Virus record (IMG/VR): IMGVR_UViG_3300038701_001735
Location: 1 to 47,017 of that record
DNA from: a virus
Reading direction: 5' to 3' (one strand)
Length of the DNA stretch: 47,017 nt
The position numbers and the translations under genes are program-made. Shown piece by piece: positions 31,792-36,042 of this stretch. Below the pieces are notes generated by a model. It saw only the letters and a program-made list of their open reading frames with translations. It did no database searches and was not told where the DNA came from. Each line of letters starts with the position of its first letter. The first letter of the stretch is position 1.

Positions 31792-33177
31792 CTACAAGCC
31801 CTCCTGTTCATCCTGGATCGACCATATCCGATTGGTCGGCATGTGCGCTCCGACTTCCGCCGATGCGAGGGGCCCGTGCCTGTTCTTCCTGACGATCAAC
31901 TCCATCCGGTTCTTGTGCCGCGCCATGTCGGCCTCGAAATCGGCCCGCGCATCCATCGTCACCGTGCCATCCTTCGACAGTTCCGGGCCGCGCTTCATGA
32001 GCCAGTATTCTTCGCGATGACAGAACACCGCCTGATCGGCATCGTTTTCAAACTGCCCGCTTTCCTTGATATCGGACAACTGCGGGCGGGGATCAGGGCG
32101 ATTGCCCAGGTTCCGGTCAAGCTGCACCAGCGCCACCACGGGGATCCCGAACTCGCCGCCCAGGTCTTTCAACTGCGTCGGGATCGAGGACATTTGCTCA
32201 TATCTTGTCCGACCTTCGGCCTCTACGATCTGCGCATAGTCTACCACGAGCATGGCGGGCGGAGCATCCCGGTTCATATCGAACAGCCGGGCGAGGTCAG
32301 ATCGCGCATCCCTGATCCGCTTTGTGCGCTTTGGGATGATATCGAAATGCAGATCGGCCAGCTTCTTGGAGCCGTTCGCCCACTTGCGCATTTCATCCTC
32401 GGCCAACTCCGACGCATTGCGCGCCTTGGAGTAGGCAATCCCGCACTCGCTCGATATCATCCTGGCGATCAACTCGCTTTCCCGCATTTCCCGAGACCAG
32501 AACGCAACGCTGCGTTCCTTGGCTATCATTTTGGCGATGTGAAGCGCGCATGTCGTCTTACCCATCGACGTGGAGCCACCGAGAAGCATCAAGTCACCGG
32601 GCGCTAACCCCCCGATAATCTTATCCAATTCGGATACACCTGTGCGGATCAGGTGGCGTTCCTCCTTGTAGTAGGCCAGCGTTTCCTCCATCGCGGACGT
32701 AATCGCCGCGACCGCCGAAACCGTGCCGCCTTGAAACTGATCCGGCAGCGAGTAGAAGAACGAGTTGAGGTCGGATTGAACCTCGCGCACCGGCTTGGAA
32801 TACAGATCGGTTTGCGCGCGCTGGATATGCTCCTGCATCACCCGCTTGACGTAAAATTCGATCACCGTGTCGGCGTAGTCCTTCACTGCCGATGAAGACA
32901 CCGCGGAGCCCGCCATCCGGACCAAGTATTGCCGCCCGCCTATGTCGCCCATGTCCAGATCGAGGATCTTCGACGCCATCGTGACAGGCGAGGCAATGCG
33001 GCCGGCGTGGATTTCATCCAGCATCCGACCGTAAAGCGTGGCGTGGATTGGATCGTAGAAATGTTCCTCCTTGAGAAATGCCGAAATGCGCGACAGCAAC
33101 TCGTTGTTCGTCAGCATCGCGCCCAGGATTTGCTGTTCTGCTTCGACGGAGAACAGACCGTCAGCCATATCCTTCAT
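31792..33177 (-). CDS. dnaB: Replicative DNA helicase (DnaB family)
   Basis: The N-terminal AEQQILGAML.. is DnaB-like. Walker A is GGSTSMGKTT. Start taken at MKDMADG in an ATGA overlap with the upstream stop; the ORF extends to 33228. Confidence 0.9.
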   Translation of the reverse strand: MKDMADGLFSVEAEQQILGAMLTNNELLSRISAFLKEEHFYDPIHATLYGRMLDEIHAGRIASPVTMASKILDLDMGDIGGRQYLVRMAGSAVSSSAVKDYADTVIEFYVKRVMQEHIQRAQTDLYSKPVREVQSDLNSFFYSLPDQFQGGTVSAVAAITSAMEETLAYYKEERHLIRTGVSELDKIIGGLAPGDLMLLGGSTSMGKTTCALHIAKMIAKERSVAFWSREMRESELIARMISSECGIAYSKARNASELAEDEMRKWANGSKKLADLHFDIIPKRTKRIRDARSDLARLFDMNRDAPPAMLVVDYAQIVEAEGRTRYEQMSSIPTQLKDLGGEFGIPVVALVQLDRNLGNRPDPRPQLSDIKESGQFENDADQAVFCHREEYWLMKRGPELSKDGTVTMDARADFEADMARHKNRMELIVRKNRHGPLASAEVGAHMPTNRIWSIQDEQEGL

Positions 33178-33380
33178 CGCTTCCCCCGCGTTTTCGGCAT
33201 CGAGGCCAGACGCTCCCGCCATGCCCATTGCTCTGTTTCGGTTGGCTGTTCAGGCGAATTGCGGCGCTGCCAGATGTAGGCCGACAGATCCTCCCGCGTC
33301 TTGTGCCGCTCGATCGCGTTTGCCCGCTCCGGTTCATACTTCCGCAGAAGGTCCATCATGTTGCCCTGTTCGACGCTCAT
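33174..33380 (-). CDS. Hypothetical 68-aa protein
   Basis: ATGA-coupled on both sides (methyltransferase stop and dnaB start). Confidence 0.5.
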   Translation of the reverse strand: MSVEQGNMMDLLRKYEPERANAIERHKTREDLSAYIWQRRNSPEQPTETEQWAWRERLASMPKTRGKR

Positions 33381-34651
33381 GATGGAAACTCCTTCTCTAT
33401 CCAGTCGATACGCTCACCAATGAACTGCATCACGTTGACGGCCATGCTGTTGCCGAGGGCCTTGTAGCGCGGACCATCTGGGCACTTGTCTGCGGGCTTG
33501 TTTCGGTAGGGAATGCGCGTGAAGCCCGGGGGAAACCCCTGCAATCTCTCGCACTCCACTGGTGTCAGGCGGCGCACGGCATAGCCATCTCGAACAGCGG
33601 GATAACCCTGGCCCGGTTTACCGCCACCCGAACTCAGTGACGGCGAAACCGCACTTTCGCGAAGCACGCCTTGTTGGTTCTGCGCAAACGCCACCGCCTG
33701 CGGAACGGTTCTTGCCTCCATCGTGTAGGCCGCGCCGTTAGACTGAACCCCAACGCCATCTGGCCCCGTGTCAAGGTTTTCACTCACAGCCCGCTCTTGA
33801 ATTGCCACCGGCACAATCGGCGTTCCGCGTCCCGTTCCGTCCTCGGATGCGTCGAAGCCTTCACCGCGGAGGGCATGGGCGACCATTGTTTGCCCCTCGT
33901 CCATGGTGGTGTTTATGCCTTTGTGCATCCGCGCCGTCAGGGGGTTGGCGACTGGCTGCGTCATTACTGCGACAACCGGGTCTTGGCCTCTTGTTTCACC
34001 GGGTCGCTCTACCCCCCTGCCACTGCCAACAAGGCTTCCCGCAACACCGTGGGCAGTGCTTTGCCCCGCTTCTCGGCTCGGCGCAGGATGCCCTGACATG
34101 CCTTCTGGCTCAGATAAAACCGCAGCGGCACGTCTCCAGTCTCCAAGATATCCGACAACGAACACACGTCTCCGTCGCTGTGGGACAGCATGTGGGAAGC
34201 CGGGTGTTCTGACATACTGAGCGTCAAGCACTCGGTAGGCGAACCCATACCCGAGTTGCCCCAAGCCCCCGAGAAAGGAACCAAAGTCCCGTCCTGATCC
34301 GCTGGACAAGACGCCGGGGACATTCTCCCAAACGATCCACTTGGGGCGATATCGTTCAGCGATGGCAAGATAGGTGAGGGCGAGGTTCCCCCGTGGGTCA
34401 GCAAGCCCCTTGCGTAGTCCTGCCACGCTGAAACTTTGGCACGGGGTTCCTCCGACGAGAACATCGACATCTGCATCTGGCCACTCCTTGAATTGTGTCA
34501 TGTCGCCCCAGTTGGGCACGTCTGGATAATGGTGGGCGAGGACCGCTGCCGGGAATTGATCGATTTCGGAAAACGCGACAGGCGACCATCCAAGCGGATG
34601 CCAAGCCTGCGTTGCGGCCTCGATGCCGCTGCACACGCTGAGATACCTCAT
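33377..34651 (-). CDS. DNA (cytosine-5) methyltransferase
   Basis: Motif I (LSVCSGIEA), IV (GGTPCQSFS), VI (WENVPG), VIII (QRRRRVFVVG) and X (GNSMAVNV). Confidence 0.92.
   Translation of the reverse strand: MRYLSVCSGIEAATQAWHPLGWSPVAFSEIDQFPAAVLAHHYPDVPNWGDMTQFKEWPDADVDVLVGGTPCQSFSVAGLRKGLADPRGNLALTYLAIAERYRPKWIVWENVPGVLSSGSGRDFGSFLGGLGQLGYGFAYRVLDAQYVRTPGFPHAVPQRRRRVFVVGYLGDWRRAAAVLSEPEGMSGHPAPSREAGQSTAHGVAGSLVGSGRGVERPGETRGQDPVVAVMTQPVANPLTARMHKGINTTMDEGQTMVAHALRGEGFDASEDGTGRGTPIVPVAIQERAVSENLDTGPDGVGVQSNGAAYTMEARTVPQAVAFAQNQQGVLRESAVSPSLSSGGGKPGQGYPAVRDGYAVRRLTPVECERLQGFPPGFTRIPYRNKPADKCPDGPRYKALGNSMAVNVMQFIGERIDWIEKEFPS
34009..34476 (-). CDS. Candidate overprinted ORF (155 codons) inside the methyltransferase gene, in a different frame on the same strand
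   Basis: AAGGAG lies 7 nt upstream of the ATG. By hand count, third-position GC is about 70% here versus about 55% for the methyltransferase frame over the same DNA. The C-terminal 50 aa are protein-like. Confidence 0.3.
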   Translation of the reverse strand: MQMSMFSSEEPRAKVSAWQDYARGLLTHGGTSPSPILPSLNDIAPSGSFGRMSPASCPADQDGTLVPFSGAWGNSGMGSPTECLTLSMSEHPASHMLSHSDGDVCSLSDILETGDVPLRFYLSQKACQGILRRAEKRGKALPTVLREALLAVAGG

Positions 34652-35046
34652 TTCCGCACCTCGAACTTCTGCGCATGGCGAAACACGATCCCGGCCACGG
34701 CGCTGACGCTGATGCCGAACCGCTCACCAATTTCGGCATACGGTTTTCCCTGACGACGAAGCTCCAAAATGGTCCGATTGCGGTCCTGATCGACGCCCAG
34801 ACGCTTCCGCCACCGCAACGTGCGGCCCGGCGCCCTCATTTCAGCCCCCCATATGCGCTCCGTAGAGAGCGGTTTGCCCTTCCCGGCGCCCCTACCCCCA
34901 GAAACACCCGACTTGTGCTCTGACGGGCCTCTCCGTGGGTCTGAGGGCACCTTTGGCTTCTGGTAGAAGCTTTCCGTCTCCCGGTGGTCGGCCTTCATGC
35001 CCCGCAACTGGTCTGTCAGGGCGTCCAATTCATCCTTGATGCTCAT
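34648..35046 (-). CDS. GcrA-like HTH protein, 132 aa, translationally coupled to the methyltransferase
   Basis: The C-terminal ..ILELRRQGKPYAEIGERFGISVSAVAGIVFRH.. resembles the GcrA N-terminal DNA-binding domain. ATGA overlap with the methyltransferase start. Confidence 0.5.
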   Translation of the reverse strand: MSIKDELDALTDQLRGMKADHRETESFYQKPKVPSDPRRGPSEHKSGVSGGRGAGKGKPLSTERIWGAEMRAPGRTLRWRKRLGVDQDRNRTILELRRQGKPYAEIGERFGISVSAVAGIVFRHAQKFEVRK

Positions 35047-35221
35047 GATCGACTTCCTCTTGGTTTGGTTTCGCGACGTTCAAGATCGCCTCTCGGTCAA
35101 CCGTGAACTCCGCAACGATCCGGCCTTCACCGCCGGGCCCGCCTATGACTTCCCCGCCGAGAACGACCGTGCGGGCGCCAGTCGTTTCAAGAATGCGGAG
35201 AGTGATCTTGCGCTTCGTCAT
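35030..35221 (-). CDS. Hypothetical 63-aa protein
   Basis: ATGA overlap with the upstream stop. Confidence 0.45.
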   Translation of the reverse strand: MTKRKITLRILETTGARTVVLGGEVIGGPGGEGRIVAEFTVDREAILNVAKPNQEEVDHEHQG

Positions 35222-36042
35222 ACGTAATTTTCCCAGAACGGCTTATCGCCGGGGCGATGGACTATTTGCCGGTCTGCTTTGGAATCCGAAAGCCAAGGCT
35301 CCCACTCGGGCGCGTTCAAAAACCTTTGAGTGCTAACGAGGTAGGTGAAGTCGCCATTGAACGAAGCAATGTATCTACGCGCCGCCTCATTCAATTCACT
35401 GGGCGACAATTGGCGACTGGCTCGCTTGTGCTTGCCCTCGCACGTCTTGCGATAGAGCGCTTCACACGCTTGCTTTGGCTTTTTCCGTGAATGTGATGGC
35501 CAGATATCATGCCAAAACTCTCGAAAGCCAACTTCGATCGGATCGGGCGACTTTGGCTTGGGTTCTTCTTTGCCGTGAAGGTCAGGGAAAAGCTCAGGTT
35601 CGTCAGAACCGGCATTATTGGACGGTTTAAGGACGGTTTTAGGACGGTTCGGGTGAACTGACTTCACCTCTTGGGGTGAACTGACTTCACCTCTTGGGGT
35701 GAACTCAGGTGACGGGTGTAAATCTGCACCTCTTGTTTCATCCAGTGTTAGAGCGTCTTCTAGCGCCTCGATCCCCGCAAGATTCAGCGCATATTCTATG
35801 ACGTATCCGTTAGGGCATTTTCGCTTTCCGACCTCTGATAAAATCCCCTCCGTCACAAACTCATTCATCGTCGAAATGACTGTCTTCTTGGAGCACTCAA
35901 CCTCTTTGGCGATGCGGACCTTCGAGGCCCAAACGCCCGAGCCATCGTCGTTCGCTCGCTCTGCGCAGTAAGCAAGTATTGCCTTGCGCGCCATCGATCC
36001 GATGCGCTTTCGATAAACCAGCGCAGCAACATATCGGCTCAT
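35218..36042 (-). CDS. Replication initiator-like winged-helix protein (lambda O analogue), 274 aa
   Basis: N-terminal wHTH (..IAKEVECSKKTVISTMNEFVTEGIL..). Iteron-like repeats lie inside the gene. It sits upstream of the helicase. Confidence 0.6.
   Translation of the reverse strand: MSRYVAALVYRKRIGSMARKAILAYCAERANDDGSGVWASKVRIAKEVECSKKTVISTMNEFVTEGILSEVGKRKCPNGYVIEYALNLAGIEALEDALTLDETRGADLHPSPEFTPRGEVSSPQEVKSVHPNRPKTVLKPSNNAGSDEPELFPDLHGKEEPKPKSPDPIEVGFREFWHDIWPSHSRKKPKQACEALYRKTCEGKHKRASRQLSPSELNEAARRYIASFNGDFTYLVSTQRFLNAPEWEPWLSDSKADRQIVHRPGDKPFWENYV
35620..35650. repeat. Three GGACGGTT(T) iterons with 11-bp phasing (candidate origin)
   Basis: Copies at 35620, 35631 and 35642. Confidence 0.6.
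35651..35705. repeat. Tandem 23-bp repeat, 2.4 copies (gggtgaactgacttcacctcttg), each containing GTGAA-N5-TTCAC
   Basis: 35651..35673 equals 35674..35696 exactly, and a partial third copy follows. The period is not a multiple of 3, so the repeat is conserved at the DNA level rather than the protein level. Confidence 0.85.

What the first reader, a model, noticed from the sequence alone, without database searches (positions are those of the whole stretch)
34009..34476. SD-preceded 155-codon ORF overprinted on the catalytic core of the C5 DNA methyltransferase gene
**What the sequence shows**
- An ORF with ATG at 34476 and stop at 34009..34011 lies entirely inside the methyltransferase gene, on the same strand but in another frame.
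- It covers the DNA that encodes methyltransferase motifs IV (PCQ), VI (ENV) and VIII (QRRRR).
- Its ATG is preceded by a perfect AAGGAG with a 7-nt spacer.
- By my hand count, third-position G+C is about 70% (109/155) in the embedded frame. Over the same DNA it is about 55% (88/160) in the methyltransferase frame. The methyltransferase frame is about 65% downstream of the overlap.
- The last ~50 residues (CSLSDILETGDVPLRFYLSQKACQGILRRAEKRGKALPTVLREALLAVAGG) have balanced, helical-looking composition. The other alternative-frame ORFs in this window are Arg/Pro-rich junk by comparison.

**Possible interpretations**
- From memory only, and unverified, that segment resembles the ..LSDILE..VP.(K/R)(Y/F)YLS.. 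segment that follows motif VIII in other C5 methyltransferases.
- So this could be a genuine overprinted gene.
- It could instead be a frameshift product: motifs I-VIII followed by an alternative C-terminus.

**Caveat**
- Long alternative-frame ORFs are common at this GC content, so length alone is not evidence.
Basis: partly seen in the sequence, partly recalled or inferred. Interest (0 to 1): 0.7.

Follow-up and report, generated by a model that had tools for sequence, protein, structure and literature searches.

The report
Hidden gene inside phage cytosine methyltransferase
The 155-codon reading frame inside this prophage DNA cytosine methyltransferase gene is a real second gene, kept by selection in thousands of phage methyltransferase genes (including dmt of phage P1) and almost never annotated; its function is unknown.

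Summary

The ORF is not a chance product of high GC. In 84 relatives chosen only by similarity in the methyltransferase (MTase) frame:
- The +1 frame has no stop over about 145 codons in 82. A synonymous-codon shuffle predicts 3.7. The +2 frame is open in 0 of 84.
- Variation at four-fold synonymous sites of conserved MTase residues is 1.85 bits before the ORF, 1.18 to 0.45 inside it and 1.83 after it.
- Over MTase codons 184-207 the wobble moves to MTase codon position 1. pN/pS is 0.31 in the +1 frame and 1.48 in the MTase frame.
- The start and SD are conserved. The Lys codon that forms AAGGAG is AAG in 45 of 45 cases, against 48% gene-wide.

The same +1-frame gene lies in P1 dmt, in mycobacteriophages of the Omega group, and in Bacillus, Vibrio, Akkermansia, Burkholderia and Caulobacter phages. 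A profile search found 4852 clusters.

AlphaFold2 predicts about 100 disordered residues followed by a confident basic three-helix C-terminal domain. No Pfam, NCBIfam, PADLOC or PDB relative was found.

Best reading: an independently translated overprinted gene. I found no report of it. Expression has not been tested.

The parts
33377..34651 (-). Host gene: C5 DNA cytosine methyltransferase, 424 aa (frame 0)
   Evidence: Pfam PF00145 at 3e-47 over residues 1-415; phrog_116 at 2e-85. This frame is intact in all 88 relatives analysed.
34009..34476 (-). Embedded overlapping gene in the +1 frame, 155 codons plus TAG
   Evidence: Open in 82 of 84 MTase-selected relatives against 3.7 expected. 1524 word-index hits and 4852 50%-identity clusters.
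34484..34489 (-). Shine-Dalgarno AAGGAG, 7 nt upstream of the embedded ATG; made from MTase codons Lys55-Glu56
   Evidence: At this site Lys is AAG in 45 of 45 relatives (gene-wide 48%) and Glu is GAG in 31 of 39 (gene-wide 45%). An SD of at least 5 nt precedes 61% of these starts, against 5% of other +1-frame ATGs.
34462..34476 (-). Three in-frame ATGs (embedded codons 1, 3, 5), each made from an MTase GAT (Asp) codon plus the following G
   Evidence: An ATG lies 6-10 codons before motif IV in most of the 88 relatives. Eight lack any ATG there and carry TTG instead; a few start further upstream.
34498..34500 (-). +1-frame TGA from MTase 'GDMT' that closes the embedded frame just upstream of its start
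   Evidence: stop at this column in 78% of relatives. Translation of the +1 frame must therefore begin downstream of it.
34012..34167 (-). Conserved C-terminal domain of the embedded protein (residues 104-155: VCSLSDILETGDVPLRFYLSQKACQGILRRAEKRGKALPTVLREALLAVAGG)
   Evidence: Column conservation 0.9-1.0. AlphaFold2 pLDDT 88-94 with three helices. This part is also conserved in P1, mycobacteriophages and Vibrio phages.
34031..34102 (-). Stretch where the selected frame switches (MTase codons 184-207): the MTase reads a variable linker, the +1 frame reads A-C-x-G-I-L-R-R-A-E-K-R-G-K-x-L-P-x-x-L-x-x-A-L
   Evidence: Entropy is 1.0-1.9 bits at MTase position 1 and about 0-0.4 at most positions 2 and 3. 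pN/pS is 0.31 in the +1 frame and 1.48 in the MTase frame.
34168..34461 (-). N-terminal about 100 residues of the embedded protein, written over MTase motifs IV-VIII; kept open, weakly constrained, predicted disordered
   Evidence: pLDDT below 50. +1-frame pN/pS is 1.33 to 1.0 here. Single MTase third positions are frozen where the embedded protein has conserved residues such as L98, L123, P125, W130, G134-M135-G136, T143 and L144 (MTase codon numbers).

Best explanation
**What it is.** A true overlapping (overprinted) protein-coding gene sits in the +1 frame inside the catalytic half of a phage/prophage orphan C5 DNA methyltransferase gene.

**How it is made (inferred).** Ribosomes start on the MTase mRNA at an internal SD (AAGGAG) and ATG. 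That site lies in the variable loop between MTase motifs III and IV. They read about 155 codons and stop in the variable linker after motif VIII.

**What the product looks like.**
- The first 100 or so residues are dictated largely by MTase motifs IV-VIII. They are kept free of stops, are only weakly constrained, and are predicted to be disordered.
- The last 50 or so residues form a small basic three-helix domain. Here selection on the embedded protein overrides selection on the MTase, which reads only a linker in this stretch.

**Shown versus inferred.**
- Shown: the frame is maintained; purifying selection acts on its amino-acid sequence; the start and SD are conserved; the gene is spread across phages of distant hosts.
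- Inferred, not shown: it is translated, and what it does.
- My best guess at function: it acts together with the MTase it is always inherited with, or on the same DNA, as an accessory or regulatory partner, with the C-terminal domain as the working part. I hold the gene call at about 0.85-0.9 and this functional guess at about 0.3. The confidence given for this explanation (0.85) refers to the gene call.
For: **1. Openness.** In 84 loci selected only by MTase-frame similarity, the +1 frame has no stop over about 145 codons in 82. The +2 frame is open in 0 of 84 and the antisense frames in 6, 0 and 0. A synonymous shuffle gives mean P(open) 0.044, or 3.7 loci expected.

**2. Synonymous constraint.** Entropy at four-fold sites of conserved MTase residues is 1.85 bits before the ORF, 1.18, 0.48 and 0.45 inside it, and 1.83 after it. 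Mann-Whitney p = 1.3e-9.

**3. Frame-specific selection.** At MTase codons 184-207, position 1 varies while positions 2 and 3 are nearly invariant. Embedded residues are 0.92-1.00 conserved against 0.25-0.75 for MTase residues. pN/pS is 0.31 in the +1 frame and 1.48 in the MTase frame. Control regions give the opposite pattern, 1.5 against 0.25.

**4. Start site.** ATG and SD are conserved, with biased synonymous codon choice at the SD.

**5. Breadth.**
- 1524 and 4852 relatives in two protein searches.
- 128 GenBank phage records.
- The match is in the +1 frame of the annotated MTase in P1, CobraSix, BhaS-171, CP-T1, Chantilly and Bcep22. Shuffle P(open) is 0 in 2000 for the low-GC BhaS-171 and for CP-T1.
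- All 31 viral loci recovered with the BhaS-171 embedded C-terminus (most of those checked are low-GC) are again +1 relative to motif VIII; in two, motifs IV and VI sit in another frame.

**6. Within P1-like plasmid prophages** (34 haplotypes, at least 96.8% identical): the ORF is open in 33. In its C-terminal 63 codons, synonymous/non-synonymous polymorphic sites (S/N) are 5/3 in the +1 frame against 20/138 elsewhere.

**7. Structure.** AlphaFold2 gives a confident three-helix C-terminal domain.

**8. Gene callers.** They repeatedly prefer this frame to the MTase frame.
Against: - There is no expression evidence of any kind: no Ribo-seq, proteomics or tagging.
- The loci are related to one another, so 82 of 84 is not 82 independent trials. 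N-terminal MTase identity of 57-84% and saturated four-fold sites outside the overlap argue that synonymous sites have had time to randomise.
- The MTase-selected set is the best 80 of at least 595 viral hits plus 9 genomes. More distant MTases were examined only through hits to the embedded protein, which is a biased sample.
- Two of 84 loci (L016, L032) carry a single in-frame TGA near the conserved Trp.
- The N-terminal two thirds shows little amino-acid constraint and no predicted fold. The functional unit could therefore be shorter than 155 aa. P1-type genes start later.
- The functional proposal rests only on strict co-inheritance with the MTase, on a TRD-like (target-recognition-domain-like) N-terminal extension in one subfamily, and on the basic helical domain. 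No homologue of known function exists.
Confidence: 0.85

Rival explanations
1. Frameshift product. Ribosomes translating the MTase slip +1 and make an MTase N-terminal fragment with the embedded C-terminus. Alternatively, they start in the embedded frame and slip back, giving embedded domain plus TRD and motifs IX-X.
For: - Natural in-frame fusions exist in databases. P0192 (342 aa, 19 contigs), P0198, P0170, P0220 and P0229 join the embedded protein to the MTase C-terminal half. P0167, P0131 and P0144 join the MTase N-terminus to the embedded frame.
- An SD-like element upstream of a shift site is a known stimulator of +1 frameshifting in prfB (my own knowledge).
Against: - The conserved C-terminal segment overlaps motif VIII itself, so a fusion cannot carry both.
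- The +1 frame is kept open for about 100 codons upstream, with a conserved ATG or TTG and SD.
- I saw no slippery or stall site between the +1-frame stop at codon 51 and the ATG at codon 59 (read by eye).
- The MTase frame stays open through the overlap in 88 of 88 loci.
- In L094 the fusion arises from a 1-nt indel that truncates both products, which looks like a mutation rather than a design.
Confidence: 0.05
2. Not a gene. The long open +1 frame and its apparent conservation are by-products of high GC content and strong conservation of the MTase amino-acid sequence.
For: - The window is 60% GC, and long off-frame ORFs are common at that composition. The same region has several on the opposite strand.
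- The N-terminal 100 residues of the embedded protein have +1-frame pN/pS of 1.0 or above.
Against: - A shuffle that keeps each MTase protein and its codon usage predicts 3.35 stops per locus. The observed mean is 0.02.
- The +2 frame behaves as the null predicts.
- The ORF persists in genomes of 30-49% GC.
- Four-fold sites are frozen only inside the ORF.
- At codons 184-207 the MTase protein is not conserved but the +1 protein is.
Confidence: 0.02
3. The constraint is on nucleic acid rather than on a second protein, for example an RNA structure or a DNA site inside the MTase gene.
For: - Nucleotide identity is unusually high here. The only megablast hits of window 33000-36000 to GenBank phages are 75-79% matches confined to about 34051-34628.
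Against: - Variation has a strict three-base period in phase with the +1 frame. +1 positions 1 and 2 are fixed and position 3 is free, over more than 24 consecutive codons.
- Stop codons are avoided only in that frame.
- The start codon and SD are conserved.
- Insertions and deletions among relatives keep the frame.
- I did not run an RNA-structure test.
Confidence: 0.02
4. It is a real gene, but its function has nothing to do with the MTase. The MTase gene is merely a widespread, tolerant host sequence. The product could be, for example, an anti-defence or host-takeover factor.
For: - The embedded ORF stays intact in loci where the MTase frame is broken further downstream: L001 and mycobacteriophage Phoebus.
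- Overprinted phage genes often encode accessory functions unrelated to their host gene (review PMC8227390, listed; abstract only).
Against: - Every copy examined overlaps an MTase, and no free-standing copy was seen. Only the best-scoring hits could be inspected.
- The C-terminal domain is nearly invariant across phages of Proteobacteria, Actinobacteria, Firmicutes and Verrucomicrobia. That fits a universal partner such as DNA or the co-inherited MTase better than a host-specific defence protein.
- One subfamily adds an MTase TRD-like module to it.
Confidence: 0.25

Closest known systems
Classical embedded out-of-frame genes of phages made by overprinting (phiX174 E within D and B within A; lambda Rz1 within Rz). 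From my own knowledge; general review PMC8227390.
   Same: - A second protein is read from another frame on the same strand, wholly inside a host gene.
- It has its own internal start.
- The novel product is compositionally odd and largely disordered.
- Synonymous variation in the host gene is suppressed.
   Different: - The host gene here is a universal enzyme family, and the overlap covers its catalytic motifs IV-VIII.
- The pair is conserved across phages of several bacterial phyla and thousands of sequence clusters, not one phage family.
- Function and expression are unknown.
Hidden out-of-frame HNH endonuclease in the 'ShiLan domain' insertion of mycobacteriophage DNA methylase genes (PMC11855218)
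   Same: - An unannotated ORF in an alternative frame inside a phage DNA methylase gene.
- The methylase frame stays open across it.
- How it is translated is an open question.
   Different: - That element is a mobile insertion carrying a recognisable HNH homing endonuclease, with a patchy distribution.
- The present gene is not an insertion. It is written over the methylase's own conserved core, has no recognisable domain, and is nearly universal within its methylase clade.
dcm-vsr of E. coli (a C5-MTase gene whose 3' end overlaps the next gene in another frame; my own knowledge)
   Same: A C5-MTase gene shares nucleotides, out of frame, with a functionally linked small gene.
   Different: - The vsr overlap is only a few codons at the gene end, and Vsr is a known endonuclease fold.
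- Here the overlap is 155 codons and internal.
- The Pfam scan returned no family at all for the embedded protein, so no Vsr family either.
Two-subunit C5-MTase M.AquI (alpha = motifs I-VIII, beta = IX-X, encoded by overlapping ORFs; my own knowledge)
   Same: Some relatives (L094-type, P0170, P0198, P0220) have one ORF ending after motif VIII and a second, overlapping ORF that carries the TRD and motifs IX-X.
   Different: - In the window and in 88 of 88 sampled relatives the MTase is a single intact polypeptide.
- The embedded ORF ends before the TRD.
- The fused forms are rare variants and may be indel mutants.
Canonical post-motif-VIII segment of C5-MTases ('F.FP...L.D.LE..V..KY.LS')
   Same: The embedded protein reads 'SE(F/W)P......CSLSDILE..VP.(R/K)Y(F/Y)LS.K', which looks like that segment. 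Compare L012 'RPLSEFLEKDVSELY'.
   Different: - It is in another frame and lies on top of motif VIII rather than 20-30 residues after it.
- No statistical similarity to PF00145, to solved MTases, or to this family's MTase profile.

Membership tests
Overprinted (overlapping) protein-coding gene | Second frame kept open beyond expectation in relatives chosen independently of that frame | tested here: met
   82 of 84 open against 3.7 expected; +2 frame 0 of 84.
Overprinted (overlapping) protein-coding gene | Suppressed synonymous variation in the host frame, confined to the overlap | tested here: met
   Four-fold-site entropy is 1.85 and 1.83 bits outside the overlap and 1.18, 0.48 and 0.45 inside; p = 1.3e-9.
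Overprinted (overlapping) protein-coding gene | Purifying selection on the amino-acid sequence of the second frame | tested here: met
   Met for the C-terminal third: pN/pS 0.31 at codons 184-207 and 0.68 at 163-183. Not met for the N-terminal two thirds, where it is 1.0-1.3. Polymorphism among P1-like phages agrees.
Overprinted (overlapping) protein-coding gene | Own translation start signal | tested here: met
   AAGGAG, 7 nt, ATG in the window. Start position and SD are conserved, with biased synonymous codons. P1 has GGAG, 7 nt, ATG.
Overprinted (overlapping) protein-coding gene | Product detected in cells | not testable with these tools
   No expression data were available. Literature searches found nothing.
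C5 DNA methyltransferase (PF00145): is the embedded product itself a member? | Significant match to the family profile or to solved members | tested here: not met
   No Pfam hit at E<=1. No PDB chain better than E = 1.1, and none an MTase. hhalign against this family's MTase gave probability 0.2%.
Programmed ribosomal frameshift product | Slippery or stall site where the frames join, and no need for an independent start | tested here: not met
   Independent start conserved. The +1 frame is closed 8 codons upstream in 78% of relatives. No slippery heptamer or in-frame stop at the junction, read by eye; no formal scan was run.
Vsr-type or controller (C-protein) partner of an MTase | Vsr endonuclease domain or helix-turn-helix domain | tested here: not met
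   No Pfam or NCBIfam domain. Foldseek found no significant match in the PDB (best E = 3.4).
Known anti-phage defence or counter-defence protein families (PADLOC) | Match to a PADLOC model | tested here: not met
   No hit at E<=1.
Split two-subunit C5-MTase (M.AquI type) | MTase frame ends after motif VIII and a second ORF carries motifs IX-X | tested here: not met
   The window MTase is one 424-aa ORF with motifs I-X. The same holds in 88 of 88 relatives. It is met only in rare variants such as L094.

The most novel reading that the evidence does not exclude
The embedded protein is an obligate trans-acting partner of the methyltransferase that encodes it. Its C-terminal three-helix domain docks on the catalytic domain or on the DNA beside it, and sets activity, specificity or timing. 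The N-terminal stretch serves as a flexible tether.

On this reading, this large clade of 'orphan' phage C5-MTases, P1 Dmt included, would be two-protein enzymes made from one stretch of DNA. The likeness of 'SEFP...SLSDILE..VP.KYYLS' to the canonical post-motif-VIII segment, which these MTases lack in their own frame, would mean that a structural element is supplied in trans.
Probability: 0.2. Interest if true: 0.9.

Novelty: new member of a known kind. Interest (0 to 1): 0.78.

Why it matters
- **A missed gene on a large scale.** A long, deeply conserved second gene has gone unannotated inside one of the best-studied enzyme families. It lies in a classical model phage (P1 dmt) and in thousands of phage and prophage genomes.
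- **Consequences for past and future experiments.** Knock-outs, codon-optimised clones and 'silent' mutations of these MTase genes also alter a second protein. Phenotypes attributed to phage cytosine methylation may need to be looked at again.
- **Effects on annotation.** Gene callers sometimes pick the embedded frame and truncate the MTase. This pollutes protein databases with unexplained 'hypothetical proteins' and split methylases.
- **A clean case for studying dual coding.** Two frames share catalytic motifs IV-VIII. Selection visibly hands over from one frame to the other within about 25 codons. The case comes with thousands of natural replicates across GC contents of 30-64%.

Tried and rejected
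**Searches for a known relative of the embedded protein**
- Pfam, NCBIfam, PADLOC, PDB sequence search, and Foldseek against PDB and BFVD. Nothing informative came back.
- phrog_16143 'DNA methyltransferase' and Thibault gp104 matched. gp104 is an annotated copy of this same overlapping ORF; phrog_16143 probably collects such copies too, which I did not check.

**Homology to the MTase itself**
- hhalign of the embedded-protein profile against the family's MTase profile was negative.
- To build a profile of canonical MTases for the 'L.DILE..KYYLS' question, I searched with the L012 MTase. All 120 listed hits were at least 93% identical, so the search was useless for that purpose. The question remains open.

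**Free-standing copies**
- I looked for copies of the embedded protein outside MTase genes. None was found among the loci inspected.
- N-terminally extended forms (P0082, P0125, P0129) turned out to be insertions inside the MTase gene, not other genes.

**Fused forms as evidence for a split MTase or a frameshift**
- In L094 the fusion comes from a 1-nt indel that damages both products. I set this idea aside as the general explanation.

**Technical failures**
- The first P1 population script extracted nothing and was fixed.

**Not attempted**

**Literature**
- Four searches found no description of this gene.
Full report
**1. The observation**

Window 34009..34476 (- strand) holds a 155-codon ORF (ATG to TAG). 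It lies wholly inside the 424-codon C5 DNA methyltransferase (MTase) gene 33377..34651, on the same strand and 175 nt into it, so it is in the +1 frame. The MTase matches Pfam DNA_methylase at 3e-47. The ORF covers MTase codons 59-214, which include PCQ, ENV and QRRRR.

AAGGAG (34489..34484) lies 7 nt before the ATG. GC3 is 0.705 in the embedded frame. In the MTase frame it is 0.548 over the same DNA, against 0.69 upstream and 0.648 downstream.

The gene sits in a replication module. A sigma-70 region-4-like HTH gene ends in an ATGA overlap with the MTase start. A 68-codon ORF and a DnaB helicase gene follow downstream.

**2. Is it more than chance?**

A protein search with the 155-aa product returned 1524 hits. 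The best 120 were all 148-229 aa long and 59-73% identical over 90-100% of the query. A profile search of 1.8 billion cluster representatives gave 4852 hits at E<=1e-3 and 3071 at E<=1e-10. Such hits are biased, because only open ORFs enter protein databases.

I therefore built a sample chosen only in the MTase frame. It comprised 80 viral contigs found with an MTase alignment and 9 genomic loci found with the MTase protein. The MTase frame is intact in all 88 loci with full N-terminal coverage, the window copy included.
- Over about 145 codons, from 8 codons before motif IV to 50 codons after motif VIII, the +1 frame has no stop in 82 of 84 loci.
- The +2 frame is open in 0 of 84, with a mean of 5.6 stops. 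The three antisense frames are open in 6, 0 and 0.
- A shuffle of synonymous codons within each gene keeps the MTase protein and codon usage. It gives mean P(open) 0.044, 3.35 expected stops per locus and 3.7 open loci expected.
- The two exceptions, L016 and L032, each have one TGA at or next to the conserved Trp. Their downstream sequence is still conserved.

**3. Is the frame coding?**

Three tests agree.
- **Synonymous constraint.** At conserved Gly, Ala, Val, Pro and Thr residues of the MTase, third-position entropy is 1.85 bits before the ORF. Inside it the values are 1.18, 0.48 and 0.45 (N part, middle, C part). After it the value is 1.83. Mann-Whitney p = 1.3e-9.
- **Phase of variation.** At MTase codons 184-207, entropy is 1.0-1.9 bits at MTase position 1 and near zero at most positions 2 and 3. 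The wobble has moved to +1 position 3. The embedded residues A-C-x-G-I-L-R-R-A-E-K-R-G-K-x-L-P-x-x-L-x-x-A-L are 0.92-1.00 conserved (E and the first K about 0.75). The MTase residues on the same DNA are mostly 0.25-0.75 conserved.
- **pN/pS (Nei-Gojobori counts, 600 random pairs).**

| Region (MTase codons) | MTase frame | +1 frame |
|---|---|---|
| 5-50 (control) | 0.27 | 1.55 |
| 64-119 | 0.31 | 1.33 |
| 120-147 | 0.36 | 1.01 |
| 163-183 | 0.54 | 0.68 |
| 184-207 | 1.48 | 0.31 |
| 359-404 (control) | 0.23 | 1.52 |

At codons 163-183 synonymous differences are also low in both frames (pS about 0.23-0.26), which indicates dual constraint.

So the C-terminal third of the embedded protein is under clear purifying selection. 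The N-terminal two thirds is kept open and is constrained only at scattered residues: L98, L123, P125, W130, G134-M135-G136, T143 and L144, in MTase codon numbers.

**4. How translation most likely starts**

In 78% of relatives the +1 frame is closed by a TGA made by MTase 'GDMT', eight codons before the embedded ATG. An ATG lies 6-10 codons before motif IV in most of the 88 relatives. Eight lack any ATG there and carry TTG instead, and a few start further upstream.

The SD is built from the MTase Lys-Glu codons of 'FKEW'. Lys is AAG in 45 of 45 cases, against 48% gene-wide. Glu is GAG in 31 of 39, against 45% gene-wide. An SD of at least 5 nt precedes 61% of these starts, against 5% of other +1-frame ATGs in the same genes.

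This points to independent internal initiation. The frameshift alternative fails for four reasons:
- 'CSLSDILE' and the motif VIII strand 'RVFVVGYLG' use the same nucleotides.
- The frame is kept open about 100 codons further upstream than a late frameshift would need.
- I saw no slippery or stall site at the junction.
- The MTase frame stays open throughout.

**5. Breadth**

tblastn against GenBank phages found the embedded protein in 128 records. They include:
- Roseobacter phage CRP-821 and Caulobacter phage DMCA;
- mycobacteriophages of the Omega group (Omegavirus: Omega, Porcelain, Dallas, Phoebus, Thibault);
- Akkermansia phage Chantilly, Vibrio phages including CP-T1, and Burkholderia phage Bcep22;
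- Bacillus phage vB_BhaS-171 and Pseudanabaena phage Pan4;
- Salmonella phage SJ46, Escherichia phage RCS47 and Escherichia phage P1.

In every record inspected the match is in the +1 frame of the annotated MTase gene, or of its motif VIII part where the MTase reading frame is disrupted. These were P1 dmt, CobraSix, Phoebus, Lelie, BhaS-171, CP-T1, Chantilly and Bcep22.
- In P1 the ORF is L099 2186..2674. A GGAG lies 7 nt before the second ATG, at 2201.
- Shuffle P(open) is 0.007 for P1 (49% GC), 0 in 2000 for BhaS-171 (42% GC) and 0 in 2000 for CP-T1.
- Thirty-one further viral loci recovered with the BhaS-171 embedded C-terminus (most of those checked are low-GC) are all +1 relative to motif VIII. 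In two of them motifs IV and VI sit in another frame.
- Among 34 P1-like haplotypes at least 96.8% identical, the ORF is open in 33. In its last 63 codons there are 5 synonymous and 3 non-synonymous polymorphic sites in the +1 frame, against 1 and 7 in the dmt frame. Elsewhere the +1 frame shows 20 and 138.

The ORF is annotated separately only where the MTase is broken up, as with Thibault gp104 next to an HNH insertion. Automatic callers sometimes choose it over the MTase frame.

**6. The product**

AlphaFold2 with 120 homologues gives pLDDT below 50 for residues 1-102 and 88-94 for about 120-155. It predicts helices at 107-113, 124-137 and 143-154, with a basic 'RRAEKRGK' turn.

No relative of known function was found in Pfam, NCBIfam, PADLOC, the PDB (sequence or fold) or BFVD. 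There is no profile similarity to the MTase's own sequence. The protein therefore looks like a de novo product of overprinting: a mostly disordered stretch imposed by the MTase motifs, plus a small evolved domain placed where the MTase needs only a linker.

The pattern 'SE(F/W)P...CSLSDILE..VP.(R/K)Y(F/Y)LS.K' does resemble the canonical segment after motif VIII of other C5-MTases. The MTases that carry this gene lack that segment in their own frame. I could not show homology, and I treat the likeness as a lead.

**7. What it does**

This is not shown. Clues:
- It was never seen apart from an MTase gene.
- Its C-terminal domain is nearly invariant across phages of distant hosts. That fits a universal partner, such as DNA or the co-inherited MTase, better than a host-specific target.
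- One common subfamily carries an insertion of about 55 codons between 'EWPD' and motif IV. It reads as junk in the MTase frame. In the embedded frame it reads as a target-recognition-domain-like (TRD-like) module, 'IAIQ...G.G..D.mFTLNT.D.HAV' (hhalign E = 6e-4).
- Rare lineages fuse the embedded protein in frame to the TRD and motifs IX-X.

I therefore favour an MTase-linked accessory or regulatory role, at about 0.3, over an unrelated function, at about 0.25. The rest is unknown.

**8. Comparison with what is known, and novelty**

It works like the classical embedded genes of phiX174 and lambda. The nearest published case in a phage methylase is the hidden out-of-frame HNH endonuclease of the 'ShiLan domain' (PMC11855218). 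That case is a mobile insertion, not an overprint of the conserved core. Four literature searches found no description of this gene. The library is incomplete, so prior description cannot be excluded. I class it as a new member of a known kind, unusual for its depth of conservation and for lying across catalytic motifs.

**9. Limits**
- There are no expression data.
- The loci are phylogenetically related.
- The unbiased sample covers the closer part of the clade only.
- The pN/pS counts are simple pairwise estimates, not a tree-aware overlapping-frame model.
- The function is inferred.

Noticed in passing
L097 (about 266-430), L098 (about 53-200), L093 (987-1190); proteins P0123, P0125, P0126, P0129, P0140: A common subfamily has an insertion of about 55 codons between MTase 'EWPD' and motif IV. 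It is open in both frames. It reads as junk in the MTase frame and as an MTase TRD-like module ('IAIQ...G.G..D.mFTLNT.D.HAV') in the embedded frame. In L093 the insert repeats a stretch of that locus's own MTase TRD.
   Followed up: partly
L094 2823..4029 (also L095, L096); protein P0192: In one phage population (19 contigs) a 1-nt indel near 'PPRREA/GILRRAA' ends the MTase frame early. It fuses the embedded protein, minus its last helix, to the MTase TRD and motifs IX-X. This could be a mutant, a split enzyme, or a site of frameshifting. Similar but independent fusions: P0170, P0198, P0220, P0229.
   Followed up: partly
L016 about 1889-1891 and L032 about 1892-1894: The only two MTase-selected loci with a broken embedded frame each have a single TGA at or beside the conserved Trp of 'W.NSGMG'. 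The conserved Met of 'SGMG' just downstream could serve as an alternative start for the C-terminal domain.
   Followed up: no
L001 4001-4558 and L002 4001-4498: Automatic gene calling chose the embedded ORF and a truncated C-terminal MTase instead of the full MTase ORF, although in L002 the 410-codon MTase frame is open. This is a systematic source of 'hypothetical protein' plus split-methylase annotations.
   Followed up: yes
L103 (mycobacteriophage Thibault) 644-2445: The MTase gene is split into gp102 and gp105 by an HNH endonuclease gene (gp103). The 81-aa gp104 between them is the C-terminal part of the embedded protein. Phoebus (L101) has an MTase frameshift further downstream. The Schatzie record says the methylase coding region could not be determined.
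   Followed up: partly
window about 34051-34628: Megablast of window 33000-36000 against GenBank phages hits only this stretch: 79% identity to Pseudanabaena phage Pan4 and 75% to Caulobacter phage DMCA. Nucleotide conservation between distant phages is concentrated in the dual-coding part and the MTase N-terminus.
   Followed up: no
L102 (Faecalibacterium phage Lelie) 900-2528: MTase motifs IV-VI are in one frame, and motif VIII to motif X in another. A motif I-like 'LFDGIGGF' follows motif X in the same ORF. This is either a permuted or tandem MTase arrangement or sequencing frameshifts. The embedded ORF is still +1 relative to motif VIII.
   Followed up: no
window 34648..35046 (-) and 33174..33380 (-): The upstream 132-aa gene has a sigma-70 region-4-like HTH (E = 5e-6) and ends in an ATGA overlap with the MTase start. 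A 68-codon ORF overlaps the MTase stop (ATGA) and also the start of the DnaB helicase gene 31792..33228. This looks like a tightly coupled replication-module operon.
   Followed up: partly
L099 (phage P1) 1885-4149: In P1 Dmt the C5-MTase domain is N-terminal and the Dam-like domain C-terminal. The embedded ORF starts after motif IV, later than in the window type, yet begins with the same 'MQLT' N-terminus.
   Followed up: partly
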